In this document: one piece after another, positions 12,995 through 64,000 of the stretch
Position numbering within the stretch: position 1 is the stretch's first letter
How the letters are laid out: each line of letters begins with the position of its first letter
NCBI GenBank assembly: GCA_021817255.1
Contig: JAKAVO010000001.1
Span: 42,536-106,535 of the forward strand
From: Thermoplasmata archaeon
GTDB lineage: Archaea > Thermoplasmatota > Thermoplasmata > Thermoplasmatales > Thermoplasmataceae
DNA length: 64,000 bases
Direction of reading: 5' to 3'
Position numbers and translations under genes: made by a program
The notes under the pieces: model-generated
Seen by the model: the letters and a program-made list of their open reading frames with translations, nothing else
The model's database searches: none
Told to the model about the DNA's origin: nothing

Positions 12995-13789
12995 TCAGGG
13001 GATATTTTGGATTTCTGGGTTGTCTGGATCTCCTCCAATGGAAATGGCCTGGTCTTTCTGATCATGGCTCAGGATTAACACGAATTGCTCCCTAATTGCC
13101 TTTTTGATCAGGGCTTTCTTTGAACTCATCGTTTTCAGGGGTTCTGAATCAATCGCTGTTATCCTTGTTGGTTTGATATGAAAAGTGGTTGGCATGAGGT
13201 CCCCTGGAAACATAAGCTTAAGGTTTCCACGTTGAAAAATGATCGCCATGTGCCCTGTTGTATGCCCACCTGTATGGATCAATTGAAAATTTCCTATTTC
13301 CATATCTGAAAAAACAGGAGTCAGGTTTGAAATGTCTGGGCCTGTAGTGCTGTAAGTGTAACTTGCTGCTGCAAAATCCTCTGGTTTCCTGAAGTTGTCA
13401 ACCTCAAGGTGGTGTGCATAAGACCTGCTCCCAGCCAGATCCGTGAAGGAATGCCCCATATGGTCAAAGTGGAGATGCGTGTGGAAAATAGCGTCAAATT
13501 TTTTAATTCCGTTCTTTTGCATATAATTTTTTAAATTCCCGTTTGGAGATGCTTCGAACCATTTTTCAAGATACTTTCCCGGACTGTTCCCAATTCCTGA
13601 GTCCACCATGTAATTTTTATCGCCTTCCCTTATGACGCAAATATTTGAATTAAGGCTTATTCTGTAATTATCATTTAACTGGAATTCCCTGGACCATATA
13701 TTTCGTGGCGTGGTTCCAAAAGCCGCACCTGGATCGAGTGAAAATGTTCCATCATTAATAACGTCATACGTGCATGTTTCCGATGGCAT
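12995..13789 (-). CDS. MBL-fold metallo-hydrolase (YtnP-like)
   Basis: DPGAAFG..P..IW, HTHLHFDH, GGHTTGH and GD motifs; start set at ATG 13789. Confidence 0.88.
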   Translation of the reverse strand: MPSETCTYDVINDGTFSLDPGAAFGTTPRNIWSREFQLNDNYRISLNSNICVIREGDKNYMVDSGIGNSPGKYLEKWFEASPNGNLKNYMQKNGIKKFDAIFHTHLHFDHMGHSFTDLAGSRSYAHHLEVDNFRKPEDFAAASYTYSTTGPDISNLTPVFSDMEIGNFQLIHTGGHTTGHMAIIFQRGNLKLMFPGDLMPTTFHIKPTRITAIDSEPLKTMSSKKALIKKAIREQFVLILSHDQKDQAISIGGDPDNPEIQNIP

Positions 13790-13906: not shown

Positions 13907-15109
13907 TTAGAATACCGGTATTTTTCCATCCACAAATCCCTGTGTCAGGTCGAATATGTGCTCCAGTTCGGAGTCAGCTATTGCCTCAATGTTTTTCTTG
14001 TGCTTTGATGGATCTACACTGCTCGGATAAATGACCTGCAAACTTGCAACGTGTGGGTTGTCAATGCTTCTTCCTATTTGTGATACAATCCTCACAAGCA
14101 CCTCTAAAACGTCTCCTCCTTCCTCCTTTACCACATGCTCTGCTATCTTGTTAGAGAGGACGTTGTATAACTTCCCCACGTGTGTAACAGGGTTCTTTCC
14201 GGCTGCTGCTTCCATGCTCATTGGCCTGTATGGCGTTATAATTCCATTAACTCTGTTTCCCCTTCCTACAGATCCATCATCCCCATTTTCCTGGGAAAGT
14301 CCTGTGACAGTCAGGTAATGGCTCGTAATCTTGGCTCCATCCTTATCTGCTGTATTTATGAAAATATTTACATCTTCACTGGAAATTTTGCTTGCATTAT
14401 CTTCAACGAGCTGCTGGAACTGTTCTTTTATGGAAAAGTATTCATCACTGTCCTTGACATATTTATCAACATATGCTGCAGCGACTGTGAGGTTTATGGT
14501 TTTGTCCTGCCTGTATCCCATAACTTTTATATCATATCCAATGGCTGGAAGTTTTTTCTTCATTTCTCCATTTATAAATTTCTCTGTACCCTTTACAAGC
14601 CTCTCTGTGTCCGTAAATGGCGCAAACCCGACTCCGAATGAAGTATCATTGGCCCTGTGCTTTGTTGTATCATATACATCCCTCAAGTCTACAGAACCGT
14701 GGCCTATTCTTGAATCCAGCATTACATCGCTATCCATATCCAGATGATTGAAATTGTTCTGAAGATAGTTTTTAGCTGCTTTTATTGCGACTGCCTTCAC
14801 TGGGATTCTTTCGCCATCTACAGTTGTTGTTGCTCTTCCACTCAACAATATGTAAACTGGATCAAGTACTGCTCCGCCGCCAAATTTTGGTGCAGACTGC
14901 CCACCAACCAGTTCCACCTGATCAGTGTTGTGATGAAGAATTTTTCCAAAATGTTTTATGTAATATTTGCTCAATTCCCTACTTACAGATTCTGCTATTC
15001 CATCAGATACGCTATCAGGGTGCCCGATACCTTTTCTTTCTACAAGTTCCACGCCTCTAAGATGTGTAGGAACCTGGTTGACTGCTTCGACTGAAATATT
15101 TCTAATCAT
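13907..15109 (-). CDS. mat: S-adenosylmethionine synthetase, archaeal type
   Basis: VERKGIGHPD, HHNTDQ, ANDTSFGVG, GRGNR and AGKNPVTHVGK motifs. Confidence 0.96.
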   Translation of the reverse strand: MIRNISVEAVNQVPTHLRGVELVERKGIGHPDSVSDGIAESVSRELSKYYIKHFGKILHHNTDQVELVGGQSAPKFGGGAVLDPVYILLSGRATTTVDGERIPVKAVAIKAAKNYLQNNFNHLDMDSDVMLDSRIGHGSVDLRDVYDTTKHRANDTSFGVGFAPFTDTERLVKGTEKFINGEMKKKLPAIGYDIKVMGYRQDKTINLTVAAAYVDKYVKDSDEYFSIKEQFQQLVEDNASKISSEDVNIFINTADKDGAKITSHYLTVTGLSQENGDDGSVGRGNRVNGIITPYRPMSMEAAAGKNPVTHVGKLYNVLSNKIAEHVVKEEGGDVLEVLVRIVSQIGRSIDNPHVASLQVIYPSSVDPSKHKKNIEAIADSELEHIFDLTQGFVDGKIPVF

Positions 15110-47404: not shown

Positions 47405-47693
47405 CCTTCAGTAAGATGCAGAATATTCTATTAAATGCTTGGTAGTTTCGGAATATTGAAGGAAGAGGGGATGTTGTCTCAAGATTTGGATATGGCAAAA
47501 CATCGTTGCAGGTGGGACATGGCTGAACAGCAAACACAGTGAGTGCCAGACAGTGCAAATGGCAGTTCTTAAGTGTAGAATAATTTAATTCAAGTAATAT
47601 TTAATTTGAACCGGAAAAAACAATTCACATGTAAGGCTAATCGTTTATCTAAACAAAAAAAATATATCATTACACTAAAAAAAGGTGTTAATT

Positions 47694-48110
47694 ATGGCGG
47701 AAAAAGGGGTTTCGATTGTTATTTCTTCCGGAACGGAAGAGAAGATGGTTATGTTGGGTGTTTTAAGCCAAACAACAGTAAATCTTGGGATGCAATTGAG
47801 GATTTTCGTAACTGGTACGGCAATTCCTCTCTTTCTCAAAGATGGATACAAGAAACATTCAGTGGTTCCAGCTGGTTTTGACGGTTTCATGAAAGATCTT
47901 CGCGAAGGCCTGGCTAAAGTCAAGTTCGAGGGATGGCATGAACTCTTGCAAAACTGTGTAAAAGATGGTGGTGCAAAGATATACGTATGTTCATTGATGT
48001 CCAGCGCGCTGAACATCCAGAAAAAGGATCTGGATCCAATGGTTGACGACCTTGTCGGAGCAACAAGTTTTATGATTCAGTCAGGGGAAAGCCAGTTAAT
48101 GGTATTGTGA
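47694..48110 (+). CDS. DsrE/DsrF family sulfur carrier protein
   Basis: IFVTG, IYVCS and VGATSF motifs; operon with tusA and sqr. Confidence 0.8.
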   Translation: MAEKGVSIVISSGTEEKMVMLGVLSQTTVNLGMQLRIFVTGTAIPLFLKDGYKKHSVVPAGFDGFMKDLREGLAKVKFEGWHELLQNCVKDGGAKIYVCSLMSSALNIQKKDLDPMVDDLVGATSFMIQSGESQLMVL

Positions 48111-48120
48111 GGTGATAAAA

Positions 48121-48357
48121 ATGACAACATTTAATGTAGATAGTAGAGGAACAGCATGCCCGGGGCCCATAACAGATCTTTTAAGGGCATATAAAAAGTC
48201 GCAGAACGGAGACACGATCATCCTGCTTGCGAACGATCCTGGAGCCGTACCAGACACGAAGACATGGTGCGAGATGACAAAAAACGAATTTGCAGGTTCA
48301 AAGCAAGTTGAAGATGCTTTCGAAATAACAGTAAAGGTGGCATCCAAAAAAGCTTAA
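48121..48357 (+). CDS. tusA: TusA family sulfur carrier
   Basis: DSRGTACPGP and DP...D...WC motifs; GAGGTGA RBS. Confidence 0.9.
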   Translation: MTTFNVDSRGTACPGPITDLLRAYKKSQNGDTIILLANDPGAVPDTKTWCEMTKNEFAGSKQVEDAFEITVKVASKKA

Positions 48358-48368
48358 AGTGGTGAAGA

Positions 48369-49583
48369 ATGAAAAAAATAGCAGTAATTGGAAGTGGTGC
48401 TGGAGGTTTAATTACTTCCAGCAAATTGGCAAAGGATCTTTATAAGGAGATCAAGAATGGTGAAGTGAGCATAACTATCTTCGACAAAAGGACGGATCAG
48501 GAGTTCCAGCCGGGATATCTTGAAGTTGCATTTCGAGGAACAGATCCGTCAAAGATAAGAAGGCCTATAGACAAACTGATTTCTCCAGGAGTACAGGTTG
48601 TGCATAAAAACATTGAAAAAGTTGATCTTGCCGAAAGATATGTGAAGACAGAGGGTGATGGCGGCGAGAAGGTTGATTTCGATTATATCGTAATATCAAC
48701 AGGAGCTTCACCGGATAATGACCAGATAGACGGGCTTAAAGAAGCAAATATGGACTTCCATACCAGTGCAAACAAATCAAGCCTCATCTATAATCAAGTT
48801 TCGAAAATAAAATCCGGCAGAATCGTTGTTGGAATAGGTGGAGTTCCATACAAATGCCCTCCATCACCAAACGAATCGGCATTTATGCTTGATGAATATT
48901 TCAGGAAAGCAGGCATAAGGGACAAGGTGGAAATAACATACGTCACTCCATTCACAAGGATCTATTCGGCAGAAACCATAAATGAAGTTATAGCGCCCAT
49001 GTACGAAAGCAGGAATATAGAAAGCATCACAGTTTTTAATACAGATACAGTGGACTCGAAAAAGAAGGAAATCACTTCCATAGAAGGTGAAACATTGAAA
49101 TACGACTATCTATATCTTACACCACCTCACAAAACTGCAGGTTTCCTCAAAGAATCAGAAATTGTGGATGAAGATGGATGGGTAAAGGTCGATAAGAAGG
49201 ATATGCATATAACCACGTACGACAATGGCTTTGCAATAGGCGACACTACAAATATACCAATATCCAAGGCAGGGGTCGAGGCCCACCTTGAGGGAATAGT
49301 TGTTGCAAACAATATAACCGGAGACATCAATGGAACAGGAAGGGCTTATAAATTTACAGGAAGAACTCAATGTTCAATGGAAACAGGATTTCACAAAGCA
49401 ACATTTGTCGTTGGAACATATGACAGGCCAGTGGAAAAAATACAGCCATCAACCATGAATTACATGGAAAAAAAGGTTATGGAGAAGATTTACTGGAGTT
49501 CGCTCCATGGACATTATGAATGGCTATTCAAGCATCATTTCAAAGAAGATTACTTTGAGCACCAGGAACCCATTGCACATTAA
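48369..49583 (+). CDS. sqr: Sulfide:quinone oxidoreductase-like flavoprotein
   Basis: GSGAGG, QPG, YKCPPSPNE, IGD.T...SKAG and TQCSMETG motifs. Confidence 0.8.
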   Translation: MKKIAVIGSGAGGLITSSKLAKDLYKEIKNGEVSITIFDKRTDQEFQPGYLEVAFRGTDPSKIRRPIDKLISPGVQVVHKNIEKVDLAERYVKTEGDGGEKVDFDYIVISTGASPDNDQIDGLKEANMDFHTSANKSSLIYNQVSKIKSGRIVVGIGGVPYKCPPSPNESAFMLDEYFRKAGIRDKVEITYVTPFTRIYSAETINEVIAPMYESRNIESITVFNTDTVDSKKKEITSIEGETLKYDYLYLTPPHKTAGFLKESEIVDEDGWVKVDKKDMHITTYDNGFAIGDTTNIPISKAGVEAHLEGIVVANNITGDINGTGRAYKFTGRTQCSMETGFHKATFVVGTYDRPVEKIQPSTMNYMEKKVMEKIYWSSLHGHYEWLFKHHFKEDYFEHQEPIAH

Positions 49584-55313: not shown

Positions 55314-55958
55314 TTATTTTTTTAACTTTTCTGCTTCTATAAGCTCACACCCAATAGCATAAGCCTCCTTTGTTTTTTCCTCTTTTATAGATTCCCAGAA
55401 ACGATCTGTGTGGAACAGCTTCTGAAAATACTCCACCTTTTCATGATAGGAAAATGGGCGGACCTGCTTCCTGAGTTCTTCTATTACTGGAAGGGCAATT
55501 GCATATGGTTTAGCCATATTGCCCAAGGCATCCCGCAAAAATTTTGAAAATGCAGGCGACTTCCCGGACGTGGAGACAGAAATAGTTACCCCGGAATCTT
55601 CGTATATCGCCGGAAAAACAATTGGGCTATTTATTTCATCAACCTCATTATACAAGATACCCGCCTCTACGCATATTTCCTTCAGTTTTTGCCTTAACCC
55701 GGAATCATCGGCTGCAATAATAACAATGGAGCTCTTATTGATCAAAGGTTTGATATCCTCTTCATTCATTATATCAGGCTTTATCTTTCTAATATCCAGT
55801 TTTGAGAATTCAGGAATAAAATACGTTGAAACAACAGTTATTTTTTCACAGTTGCCAACCAATAGTTTTGCTTTCCTGAATGCCTCTTTGCCTCCACCAA
55901 ATACAACTACTTCTCTTCCTGATGTGTTAAGCATTACGGGGATGAATTTTGCTTTCAA
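55314..55958 (-). CDS. sirC: Precorrin-2 dehydrogenase/sirohydrochlorin ferrochelatase (SirC/Met8, CysG N-terminal type)
   Basis: VFGGGKEAFRK, N.VD, FPA and ISVSTSGKSP motifs. Confidence 0.88.
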   Translation of the reverse strand: MKAKFIPVMLNTSGREVVVFGGGKEAFRKAKLLVGNCEKITVVSTYFIPEFSKLDIRKIKPDIMNEEDIKPLINKSSIVIIAADDSGLRQKLKEICVEAGILYNEVDEINSPIVFPAIYEDSGVTISVSTSGKSPAFSKFLRDALGNMAKPYAIALPVIEELRKQVRPFSYHEKVEYFQKLFHTDRFWESIKEEKTKEAYAIGCELIEAEKLKK

Positions 55959-57000: not shown

Positions 57001-58389
57001 CTAAGGGATAATTGCATTATAGACAAGATCCATCAAACCAGATGAAGATACTTTATGGTCGTATTTCTTGTTCAGCCTTGGAAGCGTATGGGAAAGCTGG
57101 GCCTTGCAAATAGCACAGGGCCGTATCACATAATCTCCTCCAATGGAAAGGGTATCCTCGTACCATAATTTTGCGTATTCCGTCCTCAGTGGGAGAAATT
57201 CATCGCTAAGAAGGCCTCCTCCACCTCCGCAGCACCATGTCCTCTCCCTCGAATGTGGTGAATCCTGATACTTGCTGACAACATTTGAAAGTATGAATCT
57301 TGGTTCATCAATCATGTCTCCTCCTCTTGCGTAGTTGCATGGATCCTGATAAACATATGATGGGCCATCATTCTTCTTCGGTTCGAATTTTATTTTTCCA
57401 TCCTTGATTGCGTCCTGGACCAGATTGAATACGTGCATGCCAGTAATCCCTCTCTTTGAAAGTTCGGGAATGACATAGTTCTTGAATGCCCTCCAGCCGT
57501 GTCCGCACTCACCCACGACAACAATTTTGGCACCAAGCTTCGTGGCCACTTCTACCATATGGTTCCCTATAGCCCTCAGGTGTTTTTCGTCTGTGAACAG
57601 TCCAAAATTTGCAAGTTCCGCATGTTCGGTCGCAAATGTATAATCAAGGCCAATTGAATGAAGAAATAACATATAGCCCTTTAGAGTCTCCATGTTGCTA
57701 AAGAAATCCGCGGAAGGAGGAACGAACATGGCGTATGCAGGCTCATCAATCTTTGGAGTCACATCCACTCCTTTCTCTTCCTTTATTTCGTCCTGTGCGA
57801 ATTCAATAGTGGATCTTAATGCAGGAGGAGGCAGTGCCATATTGTTTCCGGTTCTTTCTGCATTGTCTATTATGATGGCGGTATACCTCGATATCTTGCC
57901 TGTATCATACAGCGCAGATCTGATAGTTCTTGTAACGTCAGCCTGATCAATGCCAAACGGGCAAATTTCACCACATCTTCTGCATTCAAGGCATTGGTAA
58001 TAATAAGTTGAAATGTCCCTGAAGGACTGGTCATTCAGCTCTATTGCGCCAACAGCCTTGCCGAGCAACTTTCCCGAAAGGTTGCGTGATTTCAGGAGTC
58101 CCCTGATAAGATCAGCCCTCCCCACTGGGGAGTTATGTATATCCTCGGTGGACAAATAAGTAGGGCAGGCATTAAGGCACGCCCCGCAGTGCACGCATAA
58201 ATCGATTGCTAGCTTTACATTTCTGTTGTTTTTGACTCCATCCATCATGCACTTAAAAAACAATTCCTTCGGGTCTGAAGTTTTTTCGTTATTCACCCTT
58301 GAATGAAGCGTACTTACAAGCTCCTCCTTGGCCCATAGCGGCTCAAAATTAGAGGTATCCTCTTTCTTGAATTCAATCTCCTGTGGCAC
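57001..58389 (-). CDS. dsrK: DsrK-like (HdrD/CCG-domain) Fe-S protein
   Basis: CVHCGACLNACP, CLECRRCGEICP, GECGHG, QDPCN, CCGGGGG and PCAICK motifs; GGAGGTGA RBS before GTG 58389. Confidence 0.85.
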   Translation of the reverse strand: MPQEIEFKKEDTSNFEPLWAKEELVSTLHSRVNNEKTSDPKELFFKCMMDGVKNNRNVKLAIDLCVHCGACLNACPTYLSTEDIHNSPVGRADLIRGLLKSRNLSGKLLGKAVGAIELNDQSFRDISTYYYQCLECRRCGEICPFGIDQADVTRTIRSALYDTGKISRYTAIIIDNAERTGNNMALPPPALRSTIEFAQDEIKEEKGVDVTPKIDEPAYAMFVPPSADFFSNMETLKGYMLFLHSIGLDYTFATEHAELANFGLFTDEKHLRAIGNHMVEVATKLGAKIVVVGECGHGWRAFKNYVIPELSKRGITGMHVFNLVQDAIKDGKIKFEPKKNDGPSYVYQDPCNYARGGDMIDEPRFILSNVVSKYQDSPHSRERTWCCGGGGGLLSDEFLPLRTEYAKLWYEDTLSIGGDYVIRPCAICKAQLSHTLPRLNKKYDHKVSSSGLMDLVYNAIIP

Positions 58390-59182
58390 TGTTTTCACCT
58401 CCCTCGGTTGCCCCCGAAACATTCATTTCAGGCTGTTTAACATTCTTTATTTTATAGCTCTTTTTTGTAATCGTTGGCTGGAACAGGTAAGAAACAATAT
58501 GGACAATCTTTCCATATGGAATATAGGCGATAAAGATCAGGCCAATGGTAATGTGCACCGCCGTTACTGGACTTATGTTGGCCATTGTTGCTATCTCTGG
58601 CCTGAATTCAATAAGCGAAACGAGCCAGGGTGAGACTGTAAACATGAAAAGTGGTTTTATATAAAGTGTCTGCACAAGCCCCAAAATAATCAATGCAAGA
58701 AGCATTGATATGGCAAAATAATCGTCAAAATAGCTTATGCGCCTCATCCGTTTTACATGCAACCTTCGCGTGGCAAGGATCAAAATTCCGGCAAATGCGC
58801 TTATGCCGGCAGTTCCGCCCATATAAAGTGCAATCATTTCGTGGAATTGAAGAGAAACGGGTAATGGCAGGATCATGGCCAAGTGCCCCAAAAGTGAAAA
58901 CCAGATCCCATAATGGAACAAAACTGATCCAATGATCAGTGTCCTGTCTTTTTCCATTTTTGGCAGTGTGTAGAATAAAAATACCCTCTTAAATATGTCT
59001 TTCAACACGGCAAAAATATGGAAAGTGTTTGGGACGATAGCAACAGTCTTAAGGCCGGTAAGCCCCCTCGGAGAAATCCAGCTGGCCAATCTGTAAACGG
59101 CCCCGATCAAGAAGATTGCAAATGCTGCATAAGGAATAAAAATAAATAATATGGCTGTGAGCAGATAGTCCAAAGAATTCAC
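58373..59182 (-). CDS. dsrM: DsrM-like membrane b-type cytochrome (NarI family)
   Basis: FHYG...GH, RR....R..S...D, HI and PYGKIVH heme-ligand pattern; lies between dsrB and dsrK. Confidence 0.85.
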   Translation of the reverse strand: MNSLDYLLTAILFIFIPYAAFAIFLIGAVYRLASWISPRGLTGLKTVAIVPNTFHIFAVLKDIFKRVFLFYTLPKMEKDRTLIIGSVLFHYGIWFSLLGHLAMILPLPVSLQFHEMIALYMGGTAGISAFAGILILATRRLHVKRMRRISYFDDYFAISMLLALIILGLVQTLYIKPLFMFTVSPWLVSLIEFRPEIATMANISPVTAVHITIGLIFIAYIPYGKIVHIVSYLFQPTITKKSYKIKNVKQPEMNVSGATEGGENSATGD

Positions 59183-60309
59183 CTTTGGGCAAATTGCCTG
59201 ATGCCAAATTGCGATTCGCTGAAATCAGAGTTATTCCATTTTGTCACGGGTATTTCAAGTGTCTCCTGAAGTGACTTCAATCCAATCCGCCTCACATAAT
59301 CTGCAAATCTTTCTCCAGCGGCTCCATCTTTTTTCCACATGTCTATGATTTTTCGCAAAACCGAGACCAACTCGCCATAGTTTGGTGGATTGGCGGGTAT
59401 CCAGGGGATGAGCACCCTGGCAAGGTTTGGGCCCATACCGGTGTTGCTGCTCTTGCCTCCTACCAGGATAGAAATGCCAGTCTTCTTCGAATCGAATGTA
59501 ATGTAATCACAGACATCCTTGCACCTGCCGCACGCTATGCATTTCCCCCTGTCTATATTTATCCCTACAGAACCATCCTCTTTTCCAAATGCAGTTATGC
59601 ATTTTACGGGGCATACCATGACTACTTCAGGGACAGCCACCTTCAATGCTTCCGCTTTTCTCGGAAGGCACAAACCTATCTTCTGCGGGTCGAAAGAGGG
59701 TGCATCGCCATAGTGCCCCACAACCACAATGTCTGATGTCAGTCCACCACACGCAGTGGGGCATCCTGAAACATTGATCCTTAACTTGGCGGGAAGGCTT
59801 TCCTCGTCTTCGAAATACTTTCCGAAATTATCATACAGAACTTTGGTAATGGATGGGGAATCAACAACAGCTGTGGTGCAGGAAAGATATGCAGTGCAGG
59901 AAGAAATAGACCACAACGAATTTCTCCATCCGCCAGTACGATATCCCATCTTTTCCACCTCGCTCTTGATCATCATGGAATTTTCCAGGTTGTCTGCTAT
60001 AAATTCAATGTTTCCAGAACGGGTGAATCTCAATGCTTTTATGCCATATTTATCTTCAATGCCTGCGAACTTTCTCAGGGTATCAGAGCTGAATCTCGCG
60101 TTTGGAGTTCCACCCACTTTTATTGTAAAAACATGTTCACCGCTCTCTGAAATATGCTCTATTATCCCATTGCTGTGGAATTTTCTGTCAACCCATCTGC
60201 CGAGGTTCCTTTTTATCTCGTCAGGAAGGGAATCGGTGTATGGGACAGGCAATCTTTTTTTCATTCTTTCAGCTAAATTTGTGGACATTTTATCATTCTC
60301 CATATTCAT
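59179..60309 (-). CDS. dsrB: Dissimilatory sulfite reductase beta subunit
   Basis: GIIEHISESG, RFTRSGNIEF, CTAYLSC (CX5C), LPAKLRI.VSGCPTAC (CX3C), CPV..CIACGRC and GERFAD motifs. Confidence 0.92.
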   Translation of the reverse strand: MNMENDKMSTNLAERMKKRLPVPYTDSLPDEIKRNLGRWVDRKFHSNGIIEHISESGEHVFTIKVGGTPNARFSSDTLRKFAGIEDKYGIKALRFTRSGNIEFIADNLENSMMIKSEVEKMGYRTGGWRNSLWSISSCTAYLSCTTAVVDSPSITKVLYDNFGKYFEDEESLPAKLRINVSGCPTACGGLTSDIVVVGHYGDAPSFDPQKIGLCLPRKAEALKVAVPEVVMVCPVKCITAFGKEDGSVGINIDRGKCIACGRCKDVCDYITFDSKKTGISILVGGKSSNTGMGPNLARVLIPWIPANPPNYGELVSVLRKIIDMWKKDGAAGERFADYVRRIGLKSLQETLEIPVTKWNNSDFSESQFGIRQFAQR

Positions 60310-61474
60310 TCATTATTTTTTTTGCCCAAACAGAATAGCGTTCTCTCTCTGCGTCTGTAAGCACTGCACTGTTGATGATTCGCTTCTGTCCGGAGGGGGT
60401 CCCCTCTGGCTCAACAGGCAGTGTGTCCTTTACACTGTCTATTGTTTTGGAAAATCCTAATTTGACAAGCGTGTCACCAATCCTGTCTTTATGGGGAGCA
60501 TCCTCTTCCCAGATATTTATGATTTTCATTATGAAATCTTCAGCATCTTTATAGTCATCCAGTATTGTCACCGGTTTTGCCATCTTTGGGCCAAATCTTC
60601 CCTTTATGTTTCCGCCAGCAAGAAGCGCTATCTTCTTCTCTTTCCCTGGTTTTATGGCAGGAAACGCATATCTTATGCAGTTCATGGATTTCTGGCACTT
60701 TTCCGGGTCGATCCTGATGCCATCGGAATTGCCATCCTGTGTTATGGCACCTGACGGGCAACCCTGAACTAAATTTTGTATCTTTATGCCCTCTTTCCTG
60801 ATCTTGCTTTTGAGAAGGTTTTCATCCACATCGGGTGCTCCCTTCCACATCCCTATAAATCCAAAATCTGCCCTGTGTGCCGCTCTTGAACAATCCATAG
60901 GGCACCCACTGAACTTGAGTTTTACCTTGAATGGAAACATCTGGTTTGAAAGATTGTTATATATGGGTTCGTAAGTCATATAGTGGTCTCTTGCAGCGAG
61001 GGTATCATATTGGGCATATTCACACAGAGCCGGGCCTACACAGGAGGCAAAATCCCTGAAAGTGTCGCCAGTGTCCCCAACATCAGTTCCCAGGCTTCTT
61101 AAAACATCAATAGCTTCATCGGCCTTTTCCGGATCCATCGATATAATCAGGCCTCCAGTCTGCCCCATCACCTCTAAAAGCCCCAGCCCATAATCATCAG
61201 AAAAATCCAGGATTTTCCTTAAAGCATCAGTTTTATAAATCTGCCCCGAAGGCTGGTAAATCCTGAAATGAAGTTCGGAGTGCTTTCCATCCTTTGTCCT
61301 CCTTGCGATAAACCCAACATAAACATATCTTATCTTTGCGGAACCCCCAAACCACTGGGTCTCTTTTGCATCCAACCCTTTTGTATATGCTTCTATAGGG
61401 TACCGTGTCTTCCTTATTTCAGTGATATGGCTTGGCCATTCCCCATTTTCCTGATAATCAAGCGTTCCTGGCAT
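60293..61474 (-). CDS. dsrA: Dissimilatory sulfite reductase alpha subunit
   Basis: G.WPSH, QPSG, CVGPALC (CX5C), FPFKVKLKFSGCPMDC (CX3C), RADFGFIG.W and RIGD motifs. Confidence 0.93.
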   Translation of the reverse strand: MPGTLDYQENGEWPSHITEIRKTRYPIEAYTKGLDAKETQWFGGSAKIRYVYVGFIARRTKDGKHSELHFRIYQPSGQIYKTDALRKILDFSDDYGLGLLEVMGQTGGLIISMDPEKADEAIDVLRSLGTDVGDTGDTFRDFASCVGPALCEYAQYDTLAARDHYMTYEPIYNNLSNQMFPFKVKLKFSGCPMDCSRAAHRADFGFIGMWKGAPDVDENLLKSKIRKEGIKIQNLVQGCPSGAITQDGNSDGIRIDPEKCQKSMNCIRYAFPAIKPGKEKKIALLAGGNIKGRFGPKMAKPVTILDDYKDAEDFIMKIINIWEEDAPHKDRIGDTLVKLGFSKTIDSVKDTLPVEPEGTPSGQKRIINSAVLTDAERERYSVWAKKIMNEYGE

Positions 61475-61493
61475 AAAGATGCGCTCTCCGGCC

Positions 61494-61721
61494 TCAGTGC
61501 TCCCGTTTTAAGAGGAATTCCATGGCACCTTCCTTTTTGGACATTTCAATAATTGTTTGGCCTGTTTGTTTCGACCAGGCTTCAAAATCAGACTTTGCTG
61601 CAGGATCATCAACTATGACTCTGAAGGTTTCTCCAATCTCAACAGTCTTTATCGCCTTGTTAGTCTCTATAATCGGCATTGGGCATTGCAAACCTTTAAA
61701 ATTAAGAACTTTTTCATTCAT
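61494..61721 (-). CDS. tusA: TusA family sulfur carrier
   Basis: LNFKGLQCPMPI and DDP....DFEAW motifs; ends 19 bp before the dsrA start. Confidence 0.9.
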   Translation of the reverse strand: MNEKVLNFKGLQCPMPIIETNKAIKTVEIGETFRVIVDDPAAKSDFEAWSKQTGQTIIEMSKKEGAMEFLLKREH

Positions 61722-61808
61722 GGATTGTACTTAAGAGAGTGATATATTAGTAGTTTTGGATTAAAATATTAAGGGGAAAATACTTGTAAAGGATACACTT
61801 AATCATTT

Positions 61809-62249
61809 ATGGCCGAGGAAAAGAATGATTTACAAAAGAAGAGTAAATTAGTAATCGTACTCAGTAAAGGGACGCTGGATGCTGCCTATCCCGCTCTAAT
61901 AATTGCCACATCCGGCGTATCGCTTGGAATGGATGTTTATATGTACTTTACCTTTGGGGGAATGAAATTTCTTACAGAAGGAGAGAGTGAGCAGGTTGGC
62001 CCGTCAAAAGACCTTGGGCTTACAAAAGAACAACTTGAGAGCCTGACCGCAAAGGGGGGAATGCCATCCGTCCAGCAGATGTTGAAAATGGCTGCCGATA
62101 TGGGTGTGCACATTAATGCCTGTTCTCCAACAATGAAACTTTTCGGCACGACTGAGAAGAATCTGATATTGAAGGACACGAACATTGTTGGCGCTACGAC
62201 ATTTCTGGGATGGGCGTCTGATCCTACTGCAATAACACTATTCATTTAG
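61809..62249 (+). CDS. DsrE/DsrF family protein (DsrE2-like)
   Basis: KGTLD.AYP.LI.A, YFTFGG, INACSPTM and VGATTFL motifs. Confidence 0.85.
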   Translation: MAEEKNDLQKKSKLVIVLSKGTLDAAYPALIIATSGVSLGMDVYMYFTFGGMKFLTEGESEQVGPSKDLGLTKEQLESLTAKGGMPSVQQMLKMAADMGVHINACSPTMKLFGTTEKNLILKDTNIVGATTFLGWASDPTAITLFI

Positions 62250-62306
62250 TGTCAATCCAACTTCAAAACAGGGATTGGAATTGAATAGAAAGGGGTGTTA
62301 AAATAT

Positions 62307-62669
62307 ATGGACGAGAAAGCTAATAAAATCGCATTTTTTTCCACTATTTCTCCAGGTGACACGGCAAGAATTGACACTATGCTTGGATATGCGCTTGCAG
62401 GCATAGCCATGGGATATGAAGTTGTCATATTCCTTGCACTTGACTCTGCCCTGGTAGCAAAGAAAGTGATATTTGAAAAGTTAGACACTAAAATAAAAGA
62501 TCGAATAGAGAACTCCATCAATGAAGGCATCAAAATAGGTGTGTGTTCCGCTTCGGCAAAAACCTTCGGAATCGAGGTAAGTGACCTGATAAAAGGGACA
62601 GAGATAGAGGGAATTGCCACATTCTTCGGTTATGCTCAGGATGCAAAGATAGTGCTTTCCTGGAGTTAA
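62307..62669 (+). CDS. DsrE family protein
   Basis: A.GYEV.IFL.LDS, VCSASA and G.ATFF motifs. Confidence 0.8.
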   Translation: MDEKANKIAFFSTISPGDTARIDTMLGYALAGIAMGYEVVIFLALDSALVAKKVIFEKLDTKIKDRIENSINEGIKIGVCSASAKTFGIEVSDLIKGTEIEGIATFFGYAQDAKIVLSWS

Positions 62670-62748: not shown

Positions 62749-63339
62749 TTATTTGTTTCTAAGGTAATCCTGCACGATTTTTTCTACACCCCGCCTCATT
62801 ATGTCAGAAAGGCCGGCAGGAGAAATCCCTATCTCCTTGGCCATTGTTGTCAGAGACGTTTTCCTGTCGTGGTCAAAATAACCTTCCTCATAGGCTTTCT
62901 TAATGATTTCCCATTGCCTTTCTGTCAGTTCCATCGAGCTCCTGGAATAAGAACCAAGTATAACCAGTTTCATTCCAATTTTACGGAGCCCTCTTTCCAA
63001 AATTCTTAACTTTCCAGGGCTCTGGATAAGAACTTCGTACACCATATTTCCATCAATTGTTTCCGTACTCAAAACCGGGACTTTCAGGGAAGCAAAATAC
63101 TTGCAAATTAAGCAAGGTTTGGACTCTACCCAGAACCTGTCTTTTCCAACTCTCATAATGTTTTTGGAAAATTTTCTTAGGCTGCATCCCACAGCTTCCG
63201 GGTTAGACTTAGCGACTATACGGTAAAGTGTGAGGTGCTCCCACGAGATCAATCTTTCAACCCTGGCATCTGCTCCGGAAGCGCGTATATGGTTCACAAT
63301 AGGACAGGTCGATCTCATCACCTCGATCAGTGCTATCAT
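62749..63339 (-). CDS. Bacterio-opsin activator-type (HTH_10) transcriptional regulator
   Basis: LTERQ..I...AY..GYFD..RK.SL..MA..IGIS.. motif; N-terminal CP and C..C. Confidence 0.88.
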   Translation of the reverse strand: MIALIEVMRSTCPIVNHIRASGADARVERLISWEHLTLYRIVAKSNPEAVGCSLRKFSKNIMRVGKDRFWVESKPCLICKYFASLKVPVLSTETIDGNMVYEVLIQSPGKLRILERGLRKIGMKLVILGSYSRSSMELTERQWEIIKKAYEEGYFDHDRKTSLTTMAKEIGISPAGLSDIMRRGVEKIVQDYLRNK

Positions 63340-64000
63340 CTCACCATTATTCTTGTTTGGAATCTACACCACCTTCCCACCCTTTGCTTTCATATCGTAA
63401 TTTATTATAAATTCCACAATTCTCGTTATTTCAAATCACCTGAAATATCTTGATCCACGATGATTCCATTTTTTGGTTCACCTTTTCCAACAGATACTAT
63501 CAGGAAAGATGTTAGGATTTCTATGATCTAGAAATTCTAAGATGCCAGTCATCGTAGAATTACTCATTTCCCCCCATCCAGAGGCTCTATATTCGTGCTT
63601 TTGAAGCACTGCTTTTTGTTTATGCCCATTACCCTTTGCTATGCTAATATCATATCATCTTGCTATTTCATTTTTGCTACATCATTATATAACCACATAT
63701 CTGGAGATGTCTTTTGTCAGCTGGTTTCTATCACGGCAATATCAATTCTGCAAGCACCATCCACAACGTTTTTTGTATTCTCCGTGTCGTTGTTTTTGGT
63801 TCCATTTGAAAATTGGAAGAAGCCCATTTTAGAAGTGGAATCAGGCAAATTTATATTGGTCTTATGATGGAAAAAGCCCAGGAGTTCCGGTGTAGAAAAG
63901 AGCAACTTTACATATTAACCATAATGTACTTAAACCGCCAGAATGTACATATTTCGATATAAATGACAGCTAGTGAGGAAAATAAATCGTTTGAAATCAA

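What the first reader, a model, noticed from the sequence alone, without database searches (positions are those of the whole stretch)
60293..62669. No dsrC in the dsr cluster: TusA heads the operon and two DsrE proteins are divergent, a possible alternative sulfur-carrier relay
Seen: no DsrC-like ORF (~110 aa with a C-terminal Cys-x10-Cys arm) in the cluster, and the 178-bp dsrK-cobA gap is too small to hold one. A CPMP-type tusA sits 19 bp upstream of dsrA and shares an 87-bp divergent promoter region with two Cys-bearing dsrE-family genes. Established: DsrC is the co-substrate of DsrAB and the substrate of DsrK. TusA/DsrE relays feed sulfur to the rDsr and sHdr systems of sulfur oxidisers. 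Inference: either TusA/DsrE replace DsrC, or they deliver sulfane sulfur to an archaeal-type DsrAB working in oxidation or disproportionation. Either would be a little-described configuration. dsrC may simply lie elsewhere in the genome.
Basis: partly seen in the sequence, partly recalled or inferred. Interest (0 to 1): 0.8.

Follow-up and report, generated by a model that had tools for sequence, protein, structure and literature searches.

The report
Archaeal Dsr cluster with sulfur carriers
The supposedly missing dsrC gene starts 38 bases before the window ends, so this is a complete archaeal Dsr gene set, likely used to respire sulfite, whose extra small sulfur-carrier proteins, also present in relatives, are predicted to load sulfur onto DsrC rather than replace it.

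Summary
The headline is a window-edge artefact. A canonical two-Cys dsrC (112 aa, PF04358 E 3e-32) starts at window 63963 and runs off the edge, followed by a dsrN-like gene. The locus is a full reductive-archaeal-type dsrABCMKN set in a Thermoplasmata genome, so 'TusA/DsrE replace DsrC' fails.

The tusA/dsrE link is real and conserved. The 124-aa DsrE ortholog occurs in 10 of 401 Thermoplasmata genomes, all 10 with dsrA, and in 0 of 382 without. It also sits in Thermoproteota-type dsr loci. A DsrE trimer is predicted to bind DsrC (0.66, best control 0.01). The divergent dsrE2-tusA cassette recurs in 3 of 19 dsrA genomes; its closest relatives head sHdr sulfur-oxidation operons.

Best reading: sulfite respiration, with carriers feeding sulfane sulfur to DsrC (0.55). 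Reverse, oxidative use is open (0.25). Partial precedents exist (Desulfurella DsrE, DsrEFH type II). The scan earlier noted only a different archaeal DsrEFH-II locus.

The parts
55314..55958 (-). sirC/cysG-N-like precorrin-2 dehydrogenase (siroheme synthesis)
   Evidence: TIGR01470 72.6 bits over cut-off; PF13241
56010..56822 (-). cobA, uroporphyrinogen-III C-methyltransferase (the ORF caller extends it to 56987)
   Evidence: TIGR01469 239 bits over cut-off
57001..58422 (-). dsrK
   Evidence: NF045796 E 2e-94, 317 bits, below the 400 cut-off; Fer4 and CCG domains
58373..59182 (-). dsrM (NarI-like membrane subunit)
   Evidence: PF02665 E 1e-33; NF038037 E 4e-16
59179..60309 (-). dsrB, reductive archaeal type
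   Evidence: TIGR02066 E 1.6e-96, 323 bits, cut-off 341.5; Cx5C, Cx3C and Cx2Cx2C motifs in the sequence
60293..61474 (-). dsrA, reductive archaeal type
   Evidence: TIGR02064 E 4e-92, 309 bits, cut-off 392.85; homologues named from Thermoplasmata, Nitrososphaerota, Thermoproteus, Pyrobaculum, Vulcanisaeta; tree
61494..61721 (-). tusA, C13-P-M-P, first gene of the tusA-dsrABMK-cobA-sirC run
   Evidence: PF01206 E 8e-21
61722..61808 (.). 87-bp divergent intergenic region (promoters inferred, not mapped)
   Evidence: sequence; also 87 bp in G249; an AT-rich TATA-like stretch aligns weakly with the sHdr-linked copies
61809..62249 (+). DsrE2B-like sulfur carrier, single Cys105
   Evidence: PF13686 E 1e-23; best PDB match 2QS7, E 1e-12; 60-70% identical to copies in sHdr/apr clusters
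62295..62669 (+). Dsr-linked DsrE (DsrE3-like fold, single invariant Cys84); likely 120 aa from ATG 62307
   Evidence: PF02635 E 6e-15; Cys84 invariant in 23 of 23 aligned; fold match 3MC3, TM 0.82; found only in dsrA genomes
62749..63339 (-). HTH_10 transcription regulator
   Evidence: PF04967 E 4e-16; a homologue lies near dsrC in 9 of the 19 Thermoplasmata dsrA loci examined
63963..64000 (+). first 38 nt of dsrC (112 aa, Cys100-x10-Cys111); the gene continues past the window edge (C11:106498-106836) and is followed by a dsrN-like amidotransferase gene wholly outside the window (C11:107036-108421)
   Evidence: dsrC: PF04358 111 bits, TIGR03342 110 bits, both over cut-off; best PDB match 1JI8, E 2e-51. 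dsrN-like: TIGR00379 406 bits

Best explanation
This is a complete archaeal-type dsrABCMKN cluster with its own two-Cys DsrC, likely used for anaerobic sulfite respiration, and its TusA and two DsrE proteins are predicted to act alongside DsrC by loading sulfane sulfur onto it. Shown: gene content and order, the Cys motifs, the phylogenetic type, and conservation of the linkage. Established for the family: DsrAB turns sulfite plus DsrC into DsrC-trisulfide, which DsrMK reduces to sulfide with quinol electrons. Predicted by a model: a homotrimer of the 124-aa DsrE docks DsrC, as DsrEFH does in sulfur oxidisers. Inferred: TusA (with the DsrE2B-like protein) picks up sulfane sulfur from thiosulfate, polythionates or polysulfide and passes it via DsrE-Cys84 to DsrC, and DsrMK releases it as sulfide; any sulfite freed goes to DsrAB. 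This would let a facultative acidophile respire intermediate sulfur compounds without a molybdopterin thiosulfate or polysulfide reductase.
For: dsrC and dsrN-like gene in the cluster. DsrA groups with Thermoplasmata/Nitrososphaerota sequences (SH-aLRT 100), next to Thermoproteus/Pyrobaculum copy 1 (85), in a quick tree. DsrE ortholog in 10 of 401 class genomes, all with dsrA, 7 of 7 in the near DsrA clade; in 15 of 67 metagenomic dsrA loci and 10 of 17 loci of 15 kb or more; within 210 bp of dsrC in 8 and within 240 bp of a dsrK-type gene in 9 of the 25 loci that hold it. Named homologues come only from Thermoplasmata, Nitrososphaerota/Conexivisphaerales, Caldivirga and Vulcanisaeta, incl. 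one annotated 'dissimilatory sulfite reductase subunit E' in V. moutnovskia, a sulfate reducer per PMC10504309. DsrE trimer with DsrC: score 0.66, best of 3 controls 0.01; mark reached by 116 of 157 solved complexes and 2 of 215 mismatched pairs (rough here: own alignments, unlike the calibration); runs agree in at least 63% of contacts, partner pLDDT at least 79; the interface includes DsrC 108-110 beside Cys111. G353 and G381 carry this DsrE beside aprAB and QmoABC-like genes, a sulfate-reducer layout. Cultured archaea with this Dsr type are reducers (PMC10591310, passage). In Desulfurella amilsii a lone DsrE from the dsr operon was abundant only during thiosulfate respiration (PMC6378623, passages). 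No PF00384 match in G000 or G249 (97% complete). RNA-run contigs cover parts of dsrK, M, B, A, the dsrE region and dsrC; only 2 short contigs lie on an adjacent 19.8-kb control.
Against: No physiology or biochemistry. The closest relatives of the dsrE2-tusA cassette head sHdr operons beside sat-aprAB, an oxidative setting. All 5 genomes tested encode a heme-copper oxidase. All four other near-clade genomes (G218, G230, G236, G266) also carry sHdr. M. cuprina TusA and DsrE3A did not react with thiosulfate, sulfite or polysulfide, and DsrE2B reacted with nothing (PMC4175335); cable-bacterial TusA was not loaded by thiosulfate (PMC13293266), so the entry substrate is unsupported. No YeeE match in G000 or G369. 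9 of 19 dsrA genomes lack this DsrE ortholog, so it is not essential. DsrE Cys84 is not among the confidently placed interface residues. G000 is only 78% complete.
Confidence: 0.55

Rival explanations
1. The same relay (TusA to DsrE to DsrC) feeds a reductive-type archaeal DsrAB run in reverse, oxidising sulfane sulfur to sulfite under micro-oxic conditions, or as the oxidative arm of disproportionation. The dsrABMK operon would have taken the place of the shdr operon behind the same tusA cassette.
For: Same divergent dsrE2-tusA cassette heads hdrC1-B1-A-hyp-C2-B2 in L109, L110, L111 and (as far as the contig goes) L146. The three dsr-linked DsrE2 copies group with family f11 copies (100/98; 91/95), inside a 17-row clade (100/100) whose other 14 rows are all sHdr- or aprAB-linked. 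Heme-copper oxidase present; a dsrE-tusA-SQR operon lies 5.7 kb away. Cable bacteria pass sulfur TusA to DsrEFH-II to DsrC with reductive-type DsrAB (PMC13293266). One Nitrososphaeria genome with archaeal dsrAB and 'dsrCEFH' was suggested to oxidise sulfur (PMC10833072, passage).
Against: G000 and G249 gave no match for sat, aprA, sHdr HdrB1, QmoA or molybdopterin oxidoreductases, so no known sulfite sink (G000 78%, G249 97% complete). The DsrE ortholog is in cultured reducers and beside QmoABC-like genes. A review calls archaeal Dsr 'solely reductively operating' (PMC10591310). The donor of the cassette is not fixed: an AU test did not reject grouping the dsr-linked copies with family f14 instead (p 0.24). 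No dsrL-like ORF in the cluster; genome-wide dsrL not tested.
Confidence: 0.25
2. DsrABCMK works as an ordinary sulfite reductase and the carriers are housekeeping helpers: they scavenge persulfide or polysulfide by-products, unload over-sulfurated DsrC, or are passengers of a mobile sulfur island with no role in energy conservation.
For: DsrE2-like homologues are in 170 of 401 class genomes and TusA in 19 of 19 dsrA genomes, mostly away from dsr. The tusA-dsrE2 cassette is dsr-linked in only 3 of 19. None of the 6 other genomes of the own genus has dsrA, pointing to lateral gain.
Against: The 124-aa DsrE was found only in dsrA genomes (10 of 10; 0 of 382) across two DsrA clades and in Thermoproteota-type loci, keeps an invariant Cys, and is predicted to bind DsrC. 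tusA is the first gene of the dsrAB run, and more distant TusA copies sit just before dsrA in L059 and L102.
Confidence: 0.17
3. TusA or DsrE replaces DsrC as co-substrate of DsrAB and DsrK.
For: Only that no dsrC ORF lies wholly inside the window.
Against: A two-Cys dsrC begins at 63963; both Cys are invariant in 27 of 27 aligned DsrC from related loci; all three cassette-bearing loci have dsrC within about 4 kb of dsrA; one 9.6-kb contig of run X1 (a possible source of this DNA) spans dsrK to dsrN; an RNA-run contig covers 243 nt at dsrC.
Confidence: 0.02

Closest known systems
Reductive archaeal-type DsrABCMK(N) minimal set of Thermoproteaceae and Thermoplasmatota (PMC10504309, PMC12948486, PMC7174415)
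   Same: dsrAB, two-Cys dsrC, dsrMK without JOP, dsrN-like gene and siroheme genes in one cluster; DsrA 55-58% identical to T. tenax and P. aerophilum copy 1; DsrC best match 1JI8.
   Different: tusA heads the dsrAB run and two DsrE-family genes flank it. The passages I read do not list such carriers in the archaeal set; PMC12948486 places DsrEFH recruitment at the oxidative bacterial ancestor.
dsrE3A-dsrE2B-tusA relay of the sHdr system (Metallosphaera cuprina; PMC4175335, PMC11094781)
   Same: Same three protein types by best structural match: 3MC3 (DsrE3A), 2QS7 (DsrE2B), CPxP TusA. The dsrE2-tusA pair is closely related to the pair heading shdr operons in other Thermoplasmata.
   Different: No shdr genes here; the DsrE lacks the second Cys of the DsrE3A Cys-x7-Cys motif and is a separate subfamily confined to archaeal Dsr lineages.
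DsrEFH type I (Allochromatium) and yeeE-tusA-dsrEFH type II (cable bacteria; PMC13293266)
   Same: TusA plus DsrE-fold carrier beside a DsrC/DsrAB system; type II also pairs with reductive-type DsrAB; predicted DsrE-DsrC contact.
   Different: No E-F-H trio: two genes, both with an active-site Cys, each best matching homotrimeric DsrE proteins; no yeeE in the cluster or found in G000; DsrAB is the archaeal, not the bacterial, reductive type.
Desulfurella amilsii dsrABCMK operon with a lone DsrE (PMC6378623)
   Same: Single DsrE-related gene in a reductive dsr operon with DsrMK only, in an acid-tolerant sulfur respirer; protein abundant in thiosulfate respiration.
   Different: Bacterial; its DsrC has one Cys, and it has DsrL and a Mo thiosulfate reductase. 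Here DsrC has both Cys and no PF00384 enzyme was found. Orthology of the two DsrE proteins was not tested.

Membership tests
Reductive archaeal-type DsrABCMK(N) | dsrA and dsrB with siroheme-[4Fe-4S] motifs Cx5C...Cx3C | tested here: met
   DsrA C145/C151/C191/C195 invariant in 38 aligned; DsrB motifs in sequence; NCBIfam scores below the cut-offs
Reductive archaeal-type DsrABCMK(N) | ferredoxin Cx2Cx2C motif | tested here: inconclusive
   Present in DsrB; DsrA has Ser at the middle Cys (C260-x5-C266), as does the consensus of the 38-sequence alignment, so a clade trait
Reductive archaeal-type DsrABCMK(N) | DsrC with two C-terminal Cys (Cx10C) | tested here: met
Reductive archaeal-type DsrABCMK(N) | dsrMK without dsrJOP, dsrN nearby | tested here: met
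   DsrN is called from family and position, not from a DsrN/CobB tree; dsrJOP judged within the cluster only
Reductive archaeal-type DsrABCMK(N) | DsrA branches with Thermoproteaceae/Thermoplasmatota sequences | tested here: met
   (quick tree, midpoint root, no bacterial outgroup); much weaker match to the solved DsrA structures
Reductive archaeal-type DsrABCMK(N) | no DsrD | tested here: inconclusive
   0 of 5 genomes, but no control genome matched either
Reductive archaeal-type DsrABCMK(N) | sulfite reduced to sulfide in vivo | not testable with these tools
   no culture or assay
DsrEFH (type I or II) | three distinct syntenic subunits E, F, H, with the active Cys on E | tested here: not met
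   two DsrE-family genes, both with Cys; next gene is an HTH regulator; best matches 3MC3 and 2QS7
DsrEFH type II | synteny with yeeE and tusA (bacterial members) | tested here: not met
   tusA yes; no PF04143 match in G000 (78% complete) or G369; in G249 it is on another contig
DsrEFH type II | match to the authors' type II HMMs | not testable with these tools
   models not held
DsrE3A | Cys-x7-Cys motif (PMC4175335) | tested here: not met
   only Cys84; the second position is not Cys in any of 23 aligned
DsrE3A | DsrE fold with the active Cys at the DsrE position | tested here: met
   model pLDDT 94; 3MC3 TM 0.82; Cys aligns
sHdr-associated dsrE-tusA relay | shdr core genes adjacent or in the genome | tested here: not met
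   no HdrB1 match in G000, G249, G369; found in 6 of 21 genomes searched

The most novel reading that the evidence does not exclude
Archaeal 'reductive-only' DsrAB systems have their own homotrimeric DsrE that does the job of DsrEFH. In oxygen-respiring acidophilic Thermoplasmata it is fed by a TusA-DsrE2 cassette taken over from the sHdr sulfur-oxidation operon, letting the archaeal Dsr pathway run in reverse to oxidise sulfur.
Probability: 0.25. Interest if true: 0.8.

Novelty: new variant of a known kind. Interest (0 to 1): 0.4.

Why it matters
As written, the finding does not matter: DsrC is there. What remains is a testable lead. Recent surveys treat the archaeal Dsr pathway as a minimal, purely reductive DsrABCMK(N) set and date DsrEFH to oxidative bacteria. 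A single-Cys DsrE confined to archaeal Dsr genomes and predicted to dock DsrC suggests that a sulfur-loading step on DsrC exists on the archaeal branch too. It would give a simple precursor state for DsrEFH and either a route for thiosulfate or sulfur respiration without molybdoenzymes, or the first archaeal reverse Dsr. Either changes how archaeal dsrAB in acid mine drainage is read. Four small soluble proteins (TusA, two DsrE, DsrC) suffice for the first test.

Tried and rejected
Rejected: dsrC absent. Rejected: misassembly at the window edge (one 9.6-kb contig of run X1, a possible source of this DNA, spans dsrK-dsrN; run X11 of another study gives the same order in two contigs at about 97% identity). 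Rejected: the two dsrE genes as parts of DsrEFH. Rejected: DsrE2-like gene as Dsr-specific (170 of 401 genomes). The genome-contig scan with the single DsrA found 1 locus. DsrD search was uninformative. No NiFe hydrogenase match in G000, G249, G369, G353; not used as an argument. The intergenic alignment showed only a weak AT-rich core, no clear operator. The careful DsrA tree did not finish; the quick tree is reported. TusA tree support is moderate (87/81) and not relied on. AU test does not fix the cassette donor. tusA, dsrE2, most of the regulator, cobA/sirC and most of dsrN had no RNA contig in run X12; contigs cannot show absence. DsrAB-TusA and DsrK-TusA complexes were not predicted (one job, spent on DsrE-DsrC). 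Look-ups of earlier scan findings by place gave nothing. Paper searches turned up no description of this DsrE subfamily or of a tusA-dsrABMK operon in Thermoplasmata; (Thermoplasma sulfur respiration) gave nothing that I used. The library lacks most subscription papers; Chernyh et al. 2020 on V. moutnovskia was not read and may describe its DsrE.
Full report
Verdict. The missing DsrC is a window-edge artefact. The tusA/dsrE linkage is real and conserved, and is best read as an accessory sulfur relay that works with DsrC.

Observation. The local anatomy is as described: sirC-cobA-dsrK-dsrM-dsrB-dsrA-tusA on the minus strand, an 87-bp gap, then a DsrE2-like gene and a DsrE gene on the plus strand, then an HTH_10 regulator. 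A whole-genome search with PF04358 found one match, 111 bits, at C11:106528-106833. The window ends at C11:106535. The gene starts at window 63963, encodes 112 aa and ends in Cys100-x10-Cys111-Val. It passes the Pfam and TIGR03342 cut-offs and best matches the DsrC structure 1JI8. A CbiA/CobB-family gene, read as dsrN from family and position, follows. The set DsrABCMKN is therefore complete within about 10.6 kb.

Organism and type. The closest named locus is from a Thermoplasmata genome (L004, DsrA 75% identical). Named DsrA homologues are from Thermoplasmata, Nitrososphaerota, Thermoproteus, Pyrobaculum and Vulcanisaeta. A quick tree of 52 DsrA puts the window copy in a Thermoplasmata/Nitrososphaerota clade (SH-aLRT 100) beside Thermoproteus/Pyrobaculum copy 1 (85) (no bacterial outgroup). 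This is the reductive archaeal type, already reported in Thermoplasmatota from mine drainage (PMC12948486, passages and section 7). Runs that hold the DNA are labelled mine drainage, mine tailings or sediment where labelled; 7 of 17 may be its source. A tailings run of another study (X11) carries a strain about 97% identical with the same gene order.

Conservation. DsrA matched in 19 of 401 genomes of the class, in a near clade (7 genomes, 56-100%) and a far clade (12, 35-40%); 0 of the 6 other genomes of the own genus. dsrC was seen in the fetched loci of 17 of the 19; the other two dsrA contigs are short. Both C-terminal Cys are invariant in 27 of 27 aligned DsrC. The full dsrE-dsrE2-tusA-dsrABMK layout recurs in G249 and G369, so 3 of 19; L004 shows the same order and is counted once with G369. 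Each has dsrC.

The 124-aa DsrE is the Dsr-specific part. At E 1e-8 it matched 10 of 401 genomes: 7 of 7 near-clade, 3 of 12 far-clade, 0 of 382 without dsrA (kin are not independent, and one query can miss divergent copies). It lies in 15 of 67 metagenomic dsrA loci, 10 of 17 among loci of 15 kb or more, often touching dsrC or a dsrK-type gene (loci are partly redundant). A profile search returned 44 proteins; those with organism names are from Thermoplasmata, Nitrososphaerota/Conexivisphaerales, Caldivirga and Vulcanisaeta, one already annotated 'dissimilatory sulfite reductase subunit E' in V. moutnovskia. Cys84 is invariant in 23 of 23. The model (pLDDT 94) best matches 3MC3, DsrE3A, but the second Cys that defines DsrE3A is absent. 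Five far-clade loci have a different DsrE after dsrK and four have an SQR type III-like gene there, so sulfur-handling genes recur in these operons.

Predicted partner. A DsrE trimer folded with DsrC scored 0.66 against a best control of 0.01. The mark was reached by 116 of 157 solved complexes and 2 of 215 mismatched pairs; these counts hold only roughly here. The runs agree in at least 63% of contacts and partner pLDDT is at least 79. DsrC residues 66-75, 94-97 and 108-110 form the interface, the last beside Cys111; DsrE Cys84 is not among the confidently placed contacts. The trimer was my assumption, from solved DsrE homotrimers (PMC11094781, passage). I did not establish whether a like complex has been solved, and DsrEFH-to-DsrC transfer is known, so the pass shows likeness and not binding.

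Origin of the dsrE2-tusA cassette. DsrE2-like homologues are common (170 of 401), but copies at 60-70% identity outside the three dsr loci are the 10 of 10 genomes of family f11, only one of which has dsrA. In four of the eight f11 loci fetched the same divergent pair heads an hdrC1-B1-A-hyp(-C2-B2) run, with aprAB (and sat) on the other side; in the other four the dsrE2 lies beside sat-aprAB. Trees group the dsr-linked copies with f11 (100/98 with 27 rows; 91/95 after leaving out two long rows), inside a 100/100 clade of sHdr- or apr-linked copies. An AU test did not reject f14 as the sister (p 0.24), so donor and order of events are open. The shared cassette is shown; a swap of shdr for dsr behind it is inferred.

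Genome context. G000 (78% complete) and G249 (97%) gave no match for sat, aprA, sHdr HdrB1, QmoA or PF00384. G369 has sat and aprAB but no QmoA ortholog beside them. aprA was found in 16 of the 19 dsrA genomes; four far-clade loci have aprAB with Qmo-like genes beside dsr. The four f14 near-clade genomes also have sHdr. All 5 genomes tested have a heme-copper oxidase. YeeE was found in 2 of 5, not in G000.

Expression. One RNA run has contigs on dsrK, dsrM, dsrB, dsrA, the dsrE region and dsrC (243 nt, no differences; outside the stretch used to find the run). An adjacent 19.8-kb control carried two short contigs, both at the sqr gene. This is one run, contigs only, from a study that may be the source, so it is a hint of transcription in situ.

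Mechanism. Established for the family: DsrAB plus DsrC form a trisulfide that DsrMK reduces (PMC10504309, PMC6378623, passages). Inferred: DsrE loads sulfane sulfur on DsrC and TusA/DsrE2 supply it. I favour reduction (0.55) because cultured archaea with this Dsr type are reducers (PMC10591310), the DsrE ortholog is in Vulcanisaeta and Caldivirga and beside QmoABC-like genes, D. amilsii makes a lone dsr-operon DsrE in thiosulfate respiration (PMC6378623), and no sulfite sink was found. Against it, related TusA and DsrE proteins did not react with thiosulfate in vitro (PMC4175335, PMC13293266). Oxidation or disproportionation (0.25) has the sHdr kinship of the cassette, oxygen respiration and the cable-bacterium precedent on its side. 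A housekeeping role gets 0.17, replacement of DsrC 0.02.

Novelty. The core cluster is known. DsrE beside reductive dsr has precedents: D. amilsii, DsrEFH type II including some archaea (PMC13293266), a Nitrososphaeria genome with 'dsrCEFH' (PMC10833072) and the V. moutnovskia annotation. I found no description of this single-Cys DsrE subfamily, of tusA heading an archaeal dsrABMK run, or of the cassette shared with sHdr. I rate it a new variant of a known kind, interest 0.4.

What I read. Keyword passages only: PMC7174415, PMC4175335, PMC9326234, PMC10591310, PMC11094781, PMC10833072, PMC3654217, PMC8477390, PMC6378623, PMC11406059, bioRxiv 10.1101/2020.02.03.933291. Passages plus named sections: PMC13293266, PMC12948486, PMC10504309. 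No supplements or figures were read; gene-cluster figures and tables of PMC12948486, PMC10833072, PMC10504309 and PMC13293266 could already show these genes. Chernyh et al. 2020 is cited only through PMC10504309. The labels 'sHdr' and 'Qmo-like' for related loci rest on gene order and sub-cut-off family or BLAST matches plus my recall of those operons.

Noticed in passing
window 47685-49583 (+): A second sulfur-carrier operon, dsrE-like, tusA (CPGP), SQR type III-like, 5.7 kb from the dsr cluster. The same trio is in G369, G353 and G381 away from dsr. The only two RNA contigs on the 19.8-kb control lie at this sqr.
   Followed up: partly
G266:C12 about 2500-44700 (L029, L114, L115, L131): One supercluster holds archaeal-type dsrABMK, dsrE, dsrC, dsrN, sat, aprAB, a dsrEFH-like trio, tusA-dsrE2-dsrE-tusA-sqr, a lipoate ligase, another dsrE, an sHdr operon and a second aprAB. 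All four f14 near-clade genomes have both Dsr and sHdr: good candidates for switching or disproportionation.
   Followed up: partly
L030-L041, between dsrC and dsrA (e.g. L038:10577-10876): A conserved gene of about 100 aa with two CxxC motifs sits between dsrC and dsrA in 12 of 12 far-clade Thermoplasmata dsr loci; no Pfam or NCBIfam match. Possibly an unnamed Dsr accessory protein.
   Followed up: partly
L031, L033, L034, L035: Far-clade Thermoplasmata dsr loci with adjacent aprAB, two HdrA-like genes (QmoAB-like) and a QmoC-like gene: a likely full sulfate-reduction set in genomes of the window's own order.
   Followed up: partly
L109, L110, L111, L146: Family f11 Thermoplasmata carry hdrC1-B1-A-hyp-C2-B2 with tusA, dsrE2 and aprAB, a layout like type I sHdr (label recalled), whereas PMC11094781 (passage) mentions only type II sHdr with DsrE3B in Thermoplasmatota.
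   Followed up: partly
L049 (metagenome contig): A Pyrobaculum-like locus holds two dsrAB pairs with dsrE2-like, sqr, tusA, the DsrE ortholog, dsrC and dsrN: the same accessory set assembled with more distant TusA and DsrE2 copies.
   Followed up: partly
dsrC, residue 70 of the first row of alignment A3 (L002:11499-11837, beyond the window edge): Besides the two C-terminal Cys, a third Cys (C70, in CPPI) is invariant in 27 of 27 archaeal DsrC and lies in the loop predicted to contact DsrE.
   Followed up: no
L002 about 13570-13670 and 14100-14350 (just past dsrN): Very high summed contig depth and many loose ends mark a short conserved or repeated element (tRNA-like or repeat; not identified) right after dsrN, a possible insertion site for the cluster.
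   Followed up: no
window 62749-63339: The HTH_10 regulator has homologues near dsrC in 9 of 19 Thermoplasmata dsrA loci of both DsrA clades, a candidate regulator of the cluster.
   Followed up: partly
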